Assembly (NCBI GenBank): GCA_963822945.1
Contig: CAWGJO010000043.1
Location: 1 to 55,106 of the forward strand
Direction: 5' to 3'
Length of the DNA stretch: 55,106 nucleotides
From: an uncultured Gemmatimonadaceae bacterium
GTDB taxonomy: Bacteria > Gemmatimonadota > Gemmatimonadetes > Gemmatimonadales > Gemmatimonadaceae
This document shows positions 42,001 to 55,106 of this stretch, in pieces. A program made the position numbers. Numbering within the stretch: position 1 is the first letter of the stretch; each line of letters begins with the position of its first letter.

Positions 42001-45000
42001 ATGTCGAGCGTGAAGCCGAGCTGCTCCGTGTAGAATCCGATCGCTGCGTCCACGTCGTGGACGATGTAGCGGACCTGGACCGTGGTCATGATGGTGTCCT
42101 CCCTTGGCTCTGTGGCATTCACCGCCCGTGCTTCCTTGCTGCCCGCTGCCGCTCGCGTTGCTTGGCCAACGTCACCTTGAGATAGCGCCGATACCCATCG
42201 GGGCTCATCCAACCGCTCGGGCACTCGACCCGCGACAGCTCGCTCCCGCGGAGGCGGAGGAACTGGTGCGTCTTGCTCGTCCGGCGCTGGACCCGAACGC
42301 GGTACTGGCCCGTCTCCACGGCCCGGATGCGCCCAATGCGCCCGTCCGGCACCCGCACACAGTCTCCGACGGTGAAGCGATGCATATCGGTCCGATCTCG
42401 CGATGGAGGGGTGTCGTCACCCGGCGCCTCGTCAGGACGCCGGCTCACGGAAGCAGGCGCTAGGACCCGATACCGCGAGCGAGCGTCGCCAGGCGCAGAG
42501 TCCGCAACGGCGGTGCCCCGTCAGTTGGTGCTGCACCTCCGGGATCTGTTGCAGGAGGCGCGGTCAACGGTTCAGCCGATCGGTTGAGCGCCCCCTTCAT
42601 GTCCGGCTTGCGCTTGGCGAGCCATCCGATTGCCGCGCCGAGAATACCGGCTGTCAGAACCGCAAAGTGTGTGGGCCCGCCCTGCACCGACTGCAATCCG
42701 AAGACGAGGTGAATCAACAGCTCGGCGGCCTCGAATGCAGCGAAGCCCATGAGGCCGACTTCGGCGAGCCGAGCTTTGAGCCTGCGCGCGATGCCCACCC
42801 CCATGATGGAACCGACGAGAATCGCGGCCTCCATCGCTTGCCACCCAAAGTTCGTCGCGACCCTTGTGACCAGGAACGTGAAGACCCAGAAGAGCGTGAC
42901 CGCGACGGCGTTCGACACCACTGCGTCGCCAACGCCGGTTCTCCGCGTGTCAGCGCCACGTAGTCGGTGCCAGAACCGGCTGACGACATTGGAGGGCTTA
43001 TCCCTCGCTGAGTCGGCTTCGCCTGCGACCGGCGTACGCGCCAACGCACTGAGCTCGCGAAATGCCGCATCGAAGGCCTGTGCCGAAATGCCGGCCTCGC
43101 GCGCGATATCACGCAGTTCCGCGATCGTGGTCTCGGACCCGCGCGAGTCATCGAGCTCGATGGCCCGGGCAAGAAGCCGGTGGGCGGAGTCCTCCGACAG
43201 GCGCACGAGCTCGGCATCGGACAACGGTTCATGAGGCATCGTCTCACCCTCCGGCCATGGGGTTGTGATCCGGCCATTGCGTATGGCGTCCTGCGGCCGC
43301 GGCGCCCTGCTGCGGCGTTCTATAATAACTGCGGCCCGCGAGCGCAGCGTGCCGGCCGCTTCATCAGCCCACGCCGCCGGCAGCACGGCCTCGTTCGTCA
43401 GCGGCAAGCCAACGGTCCAGCGCACCAGACGGACCCTGTGGCGGTCCAATCTGCAACGCCGTGGCTCTGAGAATGTCAATCCGACTCCCTATCCGGCTCC
43501 CATGACGTCCTGGAGCTTCGCCGTATCGACGTACTGCTGAAACCTGGTCACCTTGCCGTCTTTAACGTCCCAGACGTGGCAGACCTGCGCGTCCATGCCC
43601 TTCCCGGTCGCCTTGTACGTTCCGGTATAGCGGGCTTCGACGATGACGCTATCGCCGGCACTGTGAAACGACTTCGGATGGACGGAGAAGCCGTCCCACT
43701 CCGCCCCTAGTTTCACGAACAGATTGTTCAGCACGGCGTCCGGGCCTACCCAGGCCTCGCCGCTTGGCATGTAAGGGTTGCTCTCCGCCTCATGCCAGTT
43801 GATGGCCGGGCTCATCGCCCCGAGAACGGTCGGCATATCTCCGCGACCAAACGCATCGTAGAGATTCTTCAGCAGGTTTACGTTGTCCATGCTCCCTCCT
43901 CGGATGTGAATTGTTGCCCACCTGTCGACCGCCGATGCCATTCACACGCACCGCGGACTGCTCTCAGGCCGGCCCATAGGAGCGTAGTTCGATGGTCTGG
44001 CCAACGCCTGAGCTCAGCCGCCGGTAGCCCGCGTAGCAGGATGATGGTCGGCTGCAGCGATTTGTTGGGCACCACCGCCCACTTGCGCGAGAATGAATGC
44101 CACGCGCTCCTGAACCGAAACCTTGGGCAGGACACAAGCTTCATACCCTGATTGCAGATACGCTGCAATTGTTGGCCCATAGGATTTGGCTGCCCTGTCG
44201 AAGCTATGTGTGCGCTCGTGGTCGCACACATAAATATCGGGCCACGGTTCTGCCACGAATATCGTACTGGCATAACGGCACGATGCAGCCGTTTGGCAAT
44301 TCGGCTCGCCTGGATCCAGGAACCGTAGCCATTCGGGGATGCCGCGATCAAAGAACACAGGTGCCTGGAGAGATTTGGCCGCTGCATAGTCCTGGATGCT
44401 GCGAGCAAGAACGGCTTTCATGAACGCAATGCGATCCGTTGCAGGGAGGATTTTGCCGTTGCACTCCAACTGTTCTCGCATGACGGCTAGGGCTGCTTCT
44501 GGAATGGTGGAATATCCAAGATCGTCCAGCGCAGCTATGAGGGTTGATTTGCCAGCTCCAGACGCGCCGGTGATGACGTAAAAATGTTGGCTACTCATGA
44601 TGCAGGTTCTGGCGCCCAACGCCGCGACGCGCTGCGGCGGCGCCCTATCATAATCACGGCCAGCGAGCGCAGCGAGTCGGCCGCTTCCAACGCCCGCACC
44701 GGCGGCAGCGGCGCCTCGCTAGGTTGGCCGCCCACCTGACCGACGTTCCCCATGCTTCCGCCAGTACGTGAGCCCAGCCAACCCGATACCCGCGCCAATC
44801 GCTCCCGGCCAGGAGATATGCGAGGACCAACCCAACTGCATGCTGATGGCTTCCAGCCCCACAAACACCAGAAAGGTGAATACGCCAGCACGGATGGCGT
44901 TCAAGCCATAGAGTGTCTGCATTCACACCTCGATGCGGAGATCGGTGCCAACCTAACGCCGCGGCAGCTCTGCTGCGGCGTCCTATCATAATCGCGGCCC

Positions 45001-54000: not shown

Positions 54001-55106
54001 TGCTGCCACGCGCACCTCGGCACCCTCCATGCCCAGATCATGGAGGGTCTTAATGCGAGGAAGAGCGCCCCTACAAAATCCAGAGGTCGCGGAGGCGCTT
54101 TCCCCGGAGTGTAGAACCAAACCAGGAACGCGACCACGAAGACGATGGCGACAACCAGAATCCTCACTGTCTCTTCCCAGTTCTAATGGTGCGCGGAATC
54201 ACCCGCCTAGTGACTCAACGGTCCGACACGCTGGCAGCACGCCTAACGCCGCGGCGCTCTGCTGCGGCGTTCTATCATAATTGCGGCCAGCGAGCGCAGC
54301 GAGCCGGCCGCTTCCCTAGCCCACGCCGTCGGCAGCAGCGCCTCGTTAGGTTGACGCATCGCGAGCCCTGGTCGCCGCCTTCTCGCCACGCGCGATACGA
54401 ACGATCTGGGTGCCATTCACCATAGCGGCCAGCCCGATGACCACGCCGGCAATGCGGCCCCCGGGCGATCGTAGGCCGAAGACGCCAAGCGCGCCAGCAA
54501 CCACTGCGGTAGCCCCTAGCAGGCTCAACACCACTCGGCCCATCCGATCTCTACGCCGCGAAGTAGTCACGTCGGGATCTCCGGGTTCAACCTAACGCCG
54601 CGGCGCTCTGCTGCGGCGGTTCATAATAGTTGCGGCCAGCGAGCGCAGCGAGCCGGCCGCTTCCATACCCCACGCCGCCAGCAGCAGCGCCTCGTTAGGC
54701 AGCCGAGGCACTCCACTTGACGGCATAGTCCTCGGCGAAGGCACCGGCCTGTTCGGCACCAGCAAAAGACCTATCGACCACCTTCCTCCAAGGACCTGGA
54801 CTGGTCAGCGGCTCAGTCGGCGCCGTGCTCACAGAGAGGATCCTTTCCTTGCCATCCCAATCGAATCGCATGACTTCTGGGCCGCTTGCGTTGTAGTCGC
54901 GCCGAAGCAAGGCTGCGGCGTACGCGTCCGCAGCAGGCCCTCGCTGAACCTCGAGAGTCCACGAACCAAAACTCCTCCAGTCGCAGTGAAGCACGGATAC
55001 GACCACGTCCCTGTCGGCGAGTCGCTTGGCGAGCCCGCAAAGGTAGTCAATGAATCCGACGAGCAATACGATGAGTCGAGGTGTCAAAGGCGACGACCAA
55101 TTGCTG

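What a model noticed while it worked through the whole genome (the two positions that open the first line are those of the whole stretch)
43288..55106. Genus-wide sedentary chromosomal integron with a homogeneous 110-bp attC family beside the Sec-formate dehydrogenase ope [...]
The right end of C43 is an integron cassette array: 17 near-identical attC sites (CCTAAC...CGCCTCGTTAGG, about 110 bp) separate small minus-strand cassettes (SnoaL, epimerase, aminoglycoside-phosphotransferase-like, BrnT/BrnA, small membrane proteins). In congeners the same attC arrays adjoin an intI fixed next to the formate dehydrogenase operon, so this is a sedentary superintegron-type locus; the intI of G000 falls in an assembly gap.
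Evidence so far: nhmmer: 17 sites at C43:43288-54725, 3 decayed ones further left, 2 on C34, 1 on C37. Cassette ends are complementary (for example GTTAGGTGG with CCACCTAAC) and the sites fold as attC hairpins. The same attC in 13 of 16 congeners, up to the 40-match limit in two. IntI over the TIGR02249 cut in 9 of 16 congeners, none in G000. intI lies next to the fdh-nuoF-like operon in 7 of 8 fetched loci, the eighth ends at a contig end; G000 contig C5 ends inside that operon. Cassettes are shared with congeners at 72-87%.
(Added by a program. Inside this text positions count along the whole contig: contig position 1 is position 1 of the stretch shown here. "Call 12" and the like, gene names such as g00115 and contig names such as C1 are that model's own, and its searches are not shown. 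The text may have been shortened before it was handed on; [...] marks where a part breaks off. The agent that wrote the report below was given it as the finding of a first reader that could run no searches.)

Follow-up and report, generated by a model that had tools for sequence, protein, structure and literature searches.

The report
Chromosomal integron with swappable integrase
This is a real gene-capture array (integron) of a known layout in a Gemmatimonadaceae bacterium, whose own recombinase gene is missing from the assembly; in related species three different recombinase versions occupy the same chromosomal slot while the cassette docking sites stay the same.

Summary
The array is real: 17 sites of one ~111-bp attC family at 43.3-54.7 kb (16 full-length, mean identity 82%), one foreign-type attC, and decayed sites further left. 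Cassette ends match (87% vs 19% shuffled) and the hairpin covaries. IntI passes the cut in 9 of 16 congeners, none in G000. Synteny at both ends puts intI in the C5-C43 gap. Corrections: intI follows fhs, points into the array (inverted type), and is absent behind fhs in G005; intact arrays run from 2 to 39 sites. Added: three IntI-attI modules (A vs B 48-53% identical) sit behind one shared upstream element. Their spread conflicts with rpoB (AU p 1.7e-47). G010 and G014 are 96% alike in fhs, 60% in intI, with the break at the start codon. attC does not differ by module. attC decays with distance, and three distal genes are intact cassettes in congeners. Verdict: new member of a known kind; the in-place integrase exchange is the part worth following.

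The parts
43289..55106 (-). Intact part of the cassette array; top strand is the window's minus strand; the intI-proximal end is cut off by the contig end
54590..54700 (-). attC (genus family, 111 bp)
54241..54351 (-). attC
53474..53583 (-). attC (variant inner hairpin)
52736..52846 (-). attC
52365..52470 (-). decayed attC (28-32 bits)
51991..52101 (-). attC
51276..51386 (-). attC
50625..50735 (-). attC
50293..50403 (-). attC
49611..49722 (-). attC closing the BrnT/BrnA cassette (variant inner hairpin)
48263..48373 (-). attC, R' core mutated
47940..48050 (-). attC, diverged (60-70 bits)
46837..46947 (-). attC, diverged
46461..46570 (-). attC
44951..45062 (-). attC (one-base insertion)
44614..44724 (-). 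attC, diverged
43999..44070 (-). Foreign-type 72-bp attC (6-nt L'-R' spacer) closing the AAA_28 cassette; its R'' is complementary to that cassette's 5' end
43289..43399 (-). attC with lost R' core; last full-length site
54695..55087 (-). Cassette ORF, 130 aa, no family; cassette start not assembled
54346..54570 (-). Cassette ORF, 74 aa, hydrophobic; related cassette in G014 (81%) and next to intI in G015
53880..54167 (-). Cassette ORF, 95 aa, no family
52903..53475 (-). Cassette ORF, 190 aa, no family
52096..52743 (-). Two short cassettes without a convincing ORF, split by the decayed attC
51419..51791 (-). Cassette with two small overlapping hydrophobic ORFs (72 and 71 aa), no family
50762..51244 (-). 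Cassette ORF, 160 aa, no family
50398..50595 (-). Cassette ORF, 65 aa, hydrophobic; 98.6% to a G014 cassette, 97% to one in the G016 satellite array
49717..50273 (-). BrnT/BrnA toxin-antitoxin cassette; a sigma-70-like match at 50273-50246; 99.3% identical to a G014 cassette
48769..49611 (-). APH(3') family aminoglycoside phosphotransferase (NF033068 222 bits, cut 205); not found in 16 congeners; best plasmid hit 43%
48389..48751 (-). ORF, 120 aa, no family; follows APH with no attC between; part of a separate cassette in G014
48045..48233 (-). Cassette ORF, 62 aa, hydrophobic
47281..47883 (-). Cassette ORF, 200 aa, no family
46588..46782 (-). Cassette ORF, 64 aa, hydrophobic
45467..46432 (-). 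NAD-dependent epimerase/dehydratase cassette ORF
44719..44922 (-). Cassette ORF, 67 aa, hydrophobic
44014..44619 (-). AAA_28 ATPase cassette ORF (carries the foreign attC)
43489..43941 (-). SnoaL-like cassette ORF
5400..43288 (-). Eroded distal zone: small genes, 27 of 33 called genes on the cassette strand, order shuffled among congeners, attC remnants; partly former cassettes
42119..42448 (-). Former cassette: flanked by intact attC in G016 (86%); only a short R'' end remains here
40130..40730 (-). HigB/HigA pair with decayed attC at 40130-40195; intact attC-flanked cassette in G012 (93%)
36086..36164 (-). attC remnant (20-21 bits)
31626..31895 (-). Former cassette gene: abuts an intact attC in G014 (90%)
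23883..23930 (-). attC remnant (15-18 bits; weak)
180..5394 (+). Distal flank (ECF sigma factor, lipase-like, kinase-TPR) that ties C43 to the intI-bearing contigs of G010 and G014

Best explanation
The right end of C43 is the cassette array of a sedentary chromosomal integron of the inverted-integrase layout. The full locus reads: Sec-formate dehydrogenase operon, fhs, intI, Pc-like promoter, attI, cassettes, all on one strand. In G000 the part from nuoF to the first cassettes is unassembled between C5 and C43. Shown: array, attC structure, cassette boundaries, intI and attI in congeners, synteny on both sides, recent cassette sharing between species. Inferred from known integron biology: IntI recombines the folded bottom strand of attC with attI at G|TT, so new cassettes enter next to intI and older ones move away. 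Bottom strands lie on the leading-strand template, which limits excision. Distal attC sites then decay and their genes become fixed. In congeners the intI-attI unit comes in three versions (A, B1, B2) that have replaced one another behind a resident upstream element, most likely by homologous recombination between fhs on one side and attC sites or shared cassettes on the other (that sub-claim about 0.65).
For: 17+1 sites, no comparable hit in reversed DNA. 95.9% of cells paired over 107 sites, 46 double changes against 8.9 shuffled. Extra bases at positions 16 and 23 of the R''-L'' arm, as in PMC2727003. End complementarity 87% vs 19%. IntI over cut in 9 of 16 congeners with catalytic motifs and full-length alignment to VchIntIA. 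fhs directly upstream in 9 of 10 intI loci, the tenth at a contig start. attI core in 9 of 9 loci that reach a cassette, complementary to the first cassette's end over 6-7 bases in 7 of 9. All 175 attC hits in eight array regions share one orientation, that of intI where intI is assembled. C5 matches the upstream side and C43:180-5394 the downstream side in G014; G010 gives the downstream side. Top strand G-rich in 8 of 8 regions, rpoB on the same contig and strand in G011, G013, G015. Module exchange.
Against: intI, attI and fhs of G000 were not seen; laying four public runs gave only short low-depth pieces and did not close the gap. The closest relative G016 (98% in fdhA) also shows no intI, with a break at the same place. 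G005 shows the slot can be empty. Satellite arrays without intI exist in the genus. The decay trend is not significant in G014, G013 or G011 (p 0.07-0.1). The bottom strand is C-rich in unpaired parts and less stable by minimum free energy in 121 of 159 sites, opposite to mobile-integron attC (PMC5027507). No recombination or expression was measured.
Confidence: 0.86

Rival explanations
1. The array belongs to this locus but the G000/G016 lineage has lost intI, so it is now a frozen CALIN.
For: No intI in G000 or its closest relative G016. G005 lacks intI behind fhs. intI loss is common (PMC2426708; PMC4889954).
Against: fhs and about 5 kb of the operon are missing too, which points to a gap rather than a clean deletion; G001, G002, G004, G006, G009 and G016 also break inside the operon. 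The sites nearest the contig end are the least decayed, and two cassettes are 98.6-99.3% identical to G014 cassettes, so capture was recent.
Confidence: 0.08
2. The C43 array is a satellite cluster of cassettes inserted at a secondary site, served in trans; the fhs-linked array lies elsewhere.
For: Satellite clusters occur: G016:C8 133.8-134.6 kb (same as G000 C34), G015:C5, and several clusters in G011.
Against: The far end of C43 is the far flank of the intI-linked array in G010 and G014, on single contigs and in the same orientation; distal-zone genes of C43 match the intI-linked regions of G010, G011, G013 and G014.
Confidence: 0.03
3. For the A/B pattern only: an ancestor carried both modules in tandem, or as an old polymorphism, and lineages lost one or the other; no exchange between species is needed.
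For: Within-type divergence (A 74-79% nt, B1 89%, B2 88%) is not far from host divergence, so no single very recent transfer is shown. The upstream element would offer homology for deletion.
Against: None of 9 fhs-linked loci holds two modules. At least 3 changes are forced on rpoB and 3-4 on fhs. B1 and B2 (68-70% aa) are further apart than A alleles from the same host clades (77-86%), and B's nearest relatives sit in other genomes of the family without fhs or the upstream palindrome. The A tree also departs from the host tree.
Confidence: 0.25
4. The repeats are served by a non-canonical, insertion-less recombinase as earlier notes propose for other Gemmatimonadota arrays, or are not recombination sites (REP-like or RNA elements).
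For: Earlier unchecked notes describe such systems in this phylum. The loop has a conserved AT-rich hexamer not explained by pairing.
Against: Here the same attC family abuts canonical IntI with the integron insertion in 9 loci. The only TIGR02249-like gene of G000 reads as XerD on C24, with no attC on that contig. No Rfam family in the window. End complementarity and cassette shuffling require recombination at G|TT.
Confidence: 0.03

Closest known systems
Sedentary chromosomal integrons (Vibrio superintegron, Xanthomonas type)
   Same: Fixed locus beside a housekeeping gene, long array of short co-oriented cassettes, homogeneous taxon-specific attC, toxin-antitoxin cassettes, bottom strand on the leading-strand template as in 25 of 30 SCIs (PMC5371416, passages).
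   Different: Intact array length varies from 2 to 39 sites between species; attC erodes distally; the integrase at the locus is not one vertically inherited gene but one of three modules; one congener has an empty slot.
Inverted-integrase integrons (Treponema type; defined in PMC4889954 and PMC13323075, passages)
   Same: intI on the same strand as the attC sites and upstream of them; a Pc-like promoter lies between intI and attI in types A and B2.
   Different: Host family; attC of about 111 bp with an 8-nt L'-R' spacer, C as first extrahelical base, any base as second, pyrimidine-rich unpaired bottom strand; type B IntI has a conserved C-terminal tail found in 6 of 113 IntI examined.
Large integron element of Gemmatirosa kalamazoonesis (more than 10 attC; PMC9024848, passage) and listing of Gemmatimonadota among integron-bearing phyla (PMC8618304, passage)
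   Same: Same phylum; large chromosomal-type array.
   Different: Those passages give no locus, attC structure, orientation or prevalence. Here IntI passes the cut in 120 of 200 sampled genomes of the family; the fhs position was seen only in this genus (0 of 30 family loci).
CALIN elements (PMC4889954, passages)
   Same: As assembled, G000 would be called a CALIN; C34 holds a true satellite cluster.
   Different: The main array ends at a contig break where congeners carry intI, a split that PMC9024848 describes as common in draft genomes.

Membership tests
Integron attC site | R'' (RYYYAAC) and R' (GTTRRRY) cores, complementary across each cassette | tested here: met
   87% vs 19% shuffled over 106 cassettes
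Integron attC site | [quoted passage not shown] | tested here: met
   95.9% cells paired, 46 double changes vs 8.9; slid controls 23-61% paired; most covariation lies in the inner stem
Integron attC site | Extrahelical bases on the R''-L'' arm at position 16 and 6-8 nt further | tested here: met
   Positions 16 and 23 in 130 parsed of 159 sites; base 16 is C in 125 of 130, not the usual G; C16 is tolerated in VCR (PMC2727003)
Integron attC site | Length 55-141 nt, spacers up to 10 nt | tested here: met
   107-112 nt, spacer 8 nt in 128 of 130; range from PMC7370490
Integron attC site | Purine-rich, more stable bottom strand (trend in mobile integrons) | tested here: not met
   Unpaired bottom strand GC skew -0.45; bottom lower in energy in 38 of 159. 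The recombinogenic fold is still more probable on the bottom strand in 69 of 86. A trend, not a defining rule.
Complete integron | intI with RHRHY/K catalytic set and the integron-specific insertion next to the array | tested here: inconclusive
   Met in 9 of 16 congeners; not assembled in G000
Complete integron | attI at the head of the array | tested here: inconclusive
   Core located in 9 of 9 congener loci that reach a cassette; not assembled in G000
Complete integron | Pc promoter driving the first cassettes | tested here: inconclusive
   Conserved TTGCNN-17-CANNNT in 5 of 5 type A and 2 of 2 type B2 loci, 0 of 2 B1; activity not tested
Complete integron | IntI-catalysed recombination | not testable with these tools
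   Indirect only: shuffled, shared and duplicated cassettes
Sedentary chromosomal integron | Fixed chromosomal locus across related species, no transposon or plasmid context | tested here: met
   fhs upstream in 9 of 10 intI loci; attC query has no hit among 72,556 plasmids; empty in G005
Sedentary chromosomal integron | Homogeneous attC and more than 10 cassettes | tested here: met
   Mean identity 82% in the window; 13 sites at 80 bits or more in G000, 38 in G010, 39 in G014, but 2-3 in G011 and G012
Sedentary chromosomal integron | attC bottom strand on the leading-strand template (trend) | tested here: met
   Inferred from G-rich top strand in 8 of 8 regions and co-direction with rpoB in 3 genomes; origin not mapped
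Sedentary chromosomal integron | SOS (LexA) control of intI | tested here: inconclusive
   The palindrome before intI is not found before lexA or recA of G000 and occurs once elsewhere in the genome; the LexA box of this phylum was not determined
Inverted-integrase group | intI on the same strand as attC and upstream of the array | tested here: met
   9 of 9 congener loci with an attC in reach; also 4 of 4 informative family loci and 24 of 26 other relatives
APH(3') aminoglycoside phosphotransferase | NF033068 cut-off; enzyme activity | tested here: inconclusive
   222.4 bits against cut 205, no named subclass reached; activity not tested

The most novel reading that the evidence does not exclude
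In this genus a sedentary integron has an interchangeable engine: the intI-Pc-attI unit exists as three alleles (A, B1, B2; A vs B about 50% identical) that have repeatedly replaced one another between species at one site, with the left border at the intI start codon behind a resident upstream element, while one attC family and one shared cassette pool are kept. The attC signature would then be set by the host lineage and its cassette pool, not by co-evolution with the integrase, and the far end of the array would act as a conveyor that turns cassettes into fixed chromosomal genes.
Probability: 0.62. Interest if true: 0.66.

Novelty: new member of a known kind. Interest (0 to 1): 0.48.

Why it matters
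It gives a worked description (locus, attI, Pc candidate, attC structure) of integrons in a family where the papers I read list them only in passing, although 120 of 200 sampled genomes carry intI. The natural swap of integrases against a constant attC family is a direct test of the proposed IntI-attC co-evolution (PMC8352920): three enzymes, three attI sites, one substrate, all easy to assay. The decay gradient offers a view of how cassette genes become permanent. The APH(3') cassette is an environmental resistance-family gene already in mobile cassette form.

Tried and rejected
Closing the C5-C43 gap with public runs: 16 runs listed, best share 0.20, no RNA holder listed; four laid runs gave short low-depth contigs, several loose ends at attC edges and three weak joints with sides under 30 bases, none usable. 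Contig-end overlaps in G000: none involving C5 or C43. Rfam: no match. PADLOC: only two weak P-loop hits for the AAA cassette among 22 proteins, so no evidence for known defence systems. LexA box: the intI palindrome is not upstream of lexA or recA. Promoter inside attC: a TATNAT hexamer is conserved in the unpaired loop, but the sigma-70 scan flags no attC (2 sites vs 1.9 expected) and I found no -35 by eye; left unexplained. 8-nt spacer as a novelty: within the published range and common in related loci. C at the first extrahelical position as a novelty: tolerated experimentally and also present in the foreign attC. A competing local hairpin at the R' end dominates in only 16 of 86 sites. 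Structure of the type B tail: pLDDT under 50 for residues 323-376, no verdict. Insertion-less recombinase: G000 C24 gene reads as XerD; the G012:C16 hit is a transposon-type integrase without attC. APH in congeners: 0 of 16. Literature searches for in-place intI replacement, attC decay or domestication (no paper with 4 of 6 terms) and Gemmatimonadota integrons found no such description in the listings; subscription papers and supplements were not seen. Earlier-finding look-ups by place, words and sequence were empty.
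Full report
OBSERVATION. The window is the whole of contig C43 of G000. A direct-repeat search and the sequence show a family of about 111 bp between short minus-strand ORFs from 43.3 kb to the right end. A profile from 10 of these sites finds 17 hits in that stretch (16 full-length, one decayed at 52371-52466), three weak ones further left, two on C34 and one on C37; the reversed genome gives nothing better than E 1.4. 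Pairwise identity of the 16 aligned sites is 68-97%, mean 82%. A structure-only finder adds a foreign 72-bp attC at 43999-44070 and finds nothing on the other strand or in reversed DNA. Rfam has no match.

THE SITES ARE attC. On the window's plus strand (the bottom strand) the fold has an R box, an asymmetric unpaired spacer, an L stem with single extra bases at positions 16 and 23 of the R''-L'' arm, and a branched tip ending in a GNA triloop. Of 159 sites at 75 bits or more from 11 genomes, 130 could be parsed: the L'-R' spacer is 8 nt in 128, base 16 is C in 125, base 23 is any base. On 107 aligned sites (chosen from 157 distinct) 95.9% of cells pair and 46 cells change on both sides, against 8.9 in shuffles; slid controls pair 23-61%. 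The structure was derived from these sequences and they are related, so the controls flatter it; most double changes are in the inner stem. In 106 cassettes the two variable bases beyond GTT and AAC are complementary in 87%, against 19% shuffled. The position of the extra bases matches PMC2727003 (passages), which also reports that C at position 16 costs under threefold; spacers up to 10 nt are in range (PMC7370490, passages). One result runs against the usual pattern: unpaired bottom-strand bases are C-rich and the bottom strand has the lower energy in only 38 of 159 sites, the reverse of mobile-integron sites (PMC5027507, passages). The recombinogenic fold is still more probable on the bottom strand in 69 of 86 sites, median 0.36 against 0.11.

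HOST AND LOCUS. The nearest IntI relatives in the genome collection, including a 100% match to the congener protein used as query, are titled Gemmatimonadaceae. IntI passes the TIGR02249 cut in 9 of 16 congeners (G008 twice) and not in G000. attC is found in 14 of 16 at E<=1e-6, one of them a single partial hit. The gene directly before intI is fhs in 9 of 10 loci; the tenth starts at a contig end. fhs closes the fdhA-nuoEF-FeS-fdhD operon (fdhD named from the sequence, recalled). fdhA has an in-frame TGA and the genome has tRNA-Sec. intI and cassettes lie on one strand with the array downstream: the inverted-integrase layout (PMC4889954 and PMC13323075, passages; group named in PMC3575428). 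An attI core lies 59, 86 or 217-229 nt after the intI stop in 9 of 9 loci that reach a cassette and matches the first cassette's far end over 6-7 bases in 7 of 9. This fixes which strand is top.

THE GAP IN G000. C5 ends inside the nuoE/F-like gene and no trace of fhs or intI is in the assembly. C43:180-5394 maps 46-70 kb beyond intI on the intI-bearing contigs of G010 and G014, in the expected orientation, and G014 also carries the C5 genes upstream. Six of the seven congeners without intI break inside the operon before the slot. The seventh, G005, has fhs followed by unrelated genes: an empty slot. So a gap is the likeliest reading, but loss of intI in the G000/G016 lineage is not excluded, and public runs did not close the gap.

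THREE ENGINES IN ONE SLOT. The ten IntI proteins fall into type A (six; 336 aa) and type B (four; 376-397 aa), 48-53% identical across types; B splits into B1 and B2 at 68-70%. All keep the catalytic motifs, and one of each type aligns over its length to VchIntIA, insertion included. Each module has its own attI region; A and B2 carry a conserved TTGCNN-17-CANNNT promoter candidate there. Nine of ten share a 45-nt upstream element with a palindrome; G008b has a diverged one. The types do not follow the host tree. On rpoB (15 genomes) starred branches force at least 3 changes and a single clade of B carriers is rejected, p-AU 1.7e-47; the groups were named from IntI before that tree was built. 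On the fhs end, G010 (B2) pairs with G014 (A) and G015 (B2) with G013 (A), both 100/99. G010 and G014 are 96% identical in fhs and 60% in intI, and identity stops at the start codon. B's closest relatives are in other Gemmatimonadaceae genomes without fhs or the palindrome. These loci lie on contigs of 94 kb to 1.8 Mb in seven genomes, which argues against binning error; several assemblies show frameshift errors, and G008's second copy may be contamination. attC does not follow the module: 0 of 107 columns differ between G010 and G014 or between all B carriers and G013 plus G014, while G008 (type A) differs from other A carriers at 4 columns. Sites were selected by a model built from G000, and cassettes move between species, so both would reduce differences. 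The pattern fits the report that attI is recognised only by its own integrase while attC is not (PMC2095811, abstract) and bears on the proposed IntI-attC co-evolution (PMC8352920, passages). Incongruent intI trees are known in general (PMC2426708, passages). I found no description of in-place exchange in searches. A tandem ancestor with differential loss remains possible.

ARRAY DYNAMICS. In eight array regions (448 kb) all 175 attC hits share one orientation and reversed DNA gives none at 14 bits. Score falls with distance from the proximal end: rho -0.63 in G000 (p 0.004), -0.71 in G010, -0.61 in G016, -0.72 in G015:C6; weaker and not significant in G014 (-0.24), G013 and G011; G012 has three sites. 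For G000, G016 and G015:C6 distance counts from a contig end, and the genomes are kin. Left of 43.3 kb, 27 of 33 called genes are on the cassette strand with median 180 aa against 284 elsewhere, and their order differs among congeners. Three of them are attC-linked cassettes in G012, G014 and G016. Of 113 congener cassettes compared, 11 match G000 at 80-99%; the BrnT/BrnA cassette is 99.3% identical to one in G014, whose fdhA is 87% identical. Intact sites number 39, 38, 11, 3 and 2 in G014, G010, G013, G012 and G011. The top strand is G-rich in 8 of 8 regions and co-directional with rpoB in three genomes, so the bottom strand is probably on the leading-strand template, the low-excision orientation of PMC5371416 (passages).

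CARGO. SnoaL, AAA_28, epimerase, BrnT/BrnA and APH match Pfam; 15 of 21 array ORFs scanned match nothing. APH passes the APH(3') family cut, is absent from 16 congeners at this query and is at most 43% identical to plasmid genes. PADLOC gives nothing of weight. The one minus-strand sigma-70-like match in the array sits at the head of the BrnT/BrnA cassette, but two matches are what chance gives.

WIDER FAMILY. IntI passes the cut in 120 of 200 other sampled genomes of the family; 48 of 64 genera have a match. Related attC sites occur in 25 of 140. Both tallies include G048, which is unpublished; no other claim rests on it. fhs was next to intI in 0 of 30 family loci. One complete genome of another genus has a co-oriented array of about 145 kb. 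Published passages list the phylum (PMC8618304) and one large element (PMC9024848); the 11 taxon models of PMC8352920 do not include it. Supplementary tables of these surveys were not read and may list such loci. Earlier notes of this scan report an inverted integron and eroded arrays in the phylum; they are unchecked and were not used as support.

VERDICT. A real sedentary integron of a known, inverted layout: new member of a known kind, confidence 0.86 that G000 has it complete. The part a specialist would follow is the exchange of integrase-attI modules against a constant attC family (probability about 0.62). Interest 0.48.

Noticed in passing
G164:C1 1246027-1390931 (L233, L235, L245): Complete genome of another genus: intI followed by a co-oriented array of about 145 kb with more than 50 related attC hits; not next to fhs.
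   Followed up: partly
family sample: IntI over the cut in 120 of 200 genomes of the family, above the 20% quoted for Gammaproteobacteria complete integrons (different measure).
   Followed up: partly
L086-L160: Many close IntI relatives are in Actinomycetota MAGs (Thermoleophilia, Coriobacteriia), several with co-oriented attC arrays, although complete integrons are reported as lacking in that phylum's RefSeq genomes.
   Followed up: partly
attC loop, e.g. window 54272-54282: AT-rich hexamer TATNAT conserved in an unpaired loop of a 68% GC genome; no -35 found. Could be a -10-like element or an aid to cruciform extrusion.
   Followed up: partly
L003, L004, L006, L009, L085, L220: Type B IntI has a conserved tail of about 30 aa behind a Gly/Ala linker, with third-position changes; in 6 of 113 IntI; model confidence too low to place it.
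   Followed up: partly
45 nt before intI, L003-L011, L018: Palindrome plus a -10-like hexamer 6 nt before the start codon; suggests a leaderless transcript under a repressor that is not shown to be LexA.
   Followed up: partly
G011 C2 and C4: Near-complete genome with 2 intact attC at intI and more than 30 mostly decayed sites in several distant clusters on both strands.
   Followed up: partly
G000 C34 4042-5346; G016:C8 133776-134643: Satellite array about 80 kb beyond the main one in G016, holding cassettes that lie in the main array or distal zone of G000.
   Followed up: partly
window 12200-19900: Distal-zone block is 90-97% identical to G014 while the flank is 83%, suggesting a recent block transfer.
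   Followed up: no
window 40191-40730: HigB-like and HigA-like sequences read in one frame without a stop between them.
   Followed up: no
window 45385-45460: Possible further decayed attC of a foreign type between the epimerase ORF and a 90-aa ORF; not picked up by either finder.
   Followed up: partly
G012:C43 5000-24000 (L077): attC cluster and flanks are mirror-duplicated; may be a fold-back assembly artefact.
   Followed up: no
G008:C244 (L005) and C271 (L018): Two type A intI in one genome, 86% identical; one has a diverged upstream element; G008 attC sites are a distinct variant.
   Followed up: partly
window 29865-31325 and 34457-36061: Two beta-lactamase-family (serine hydrolase) genes in the distal zone, shared with G010, G015 or G016 in different orders.
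   Followed up: no
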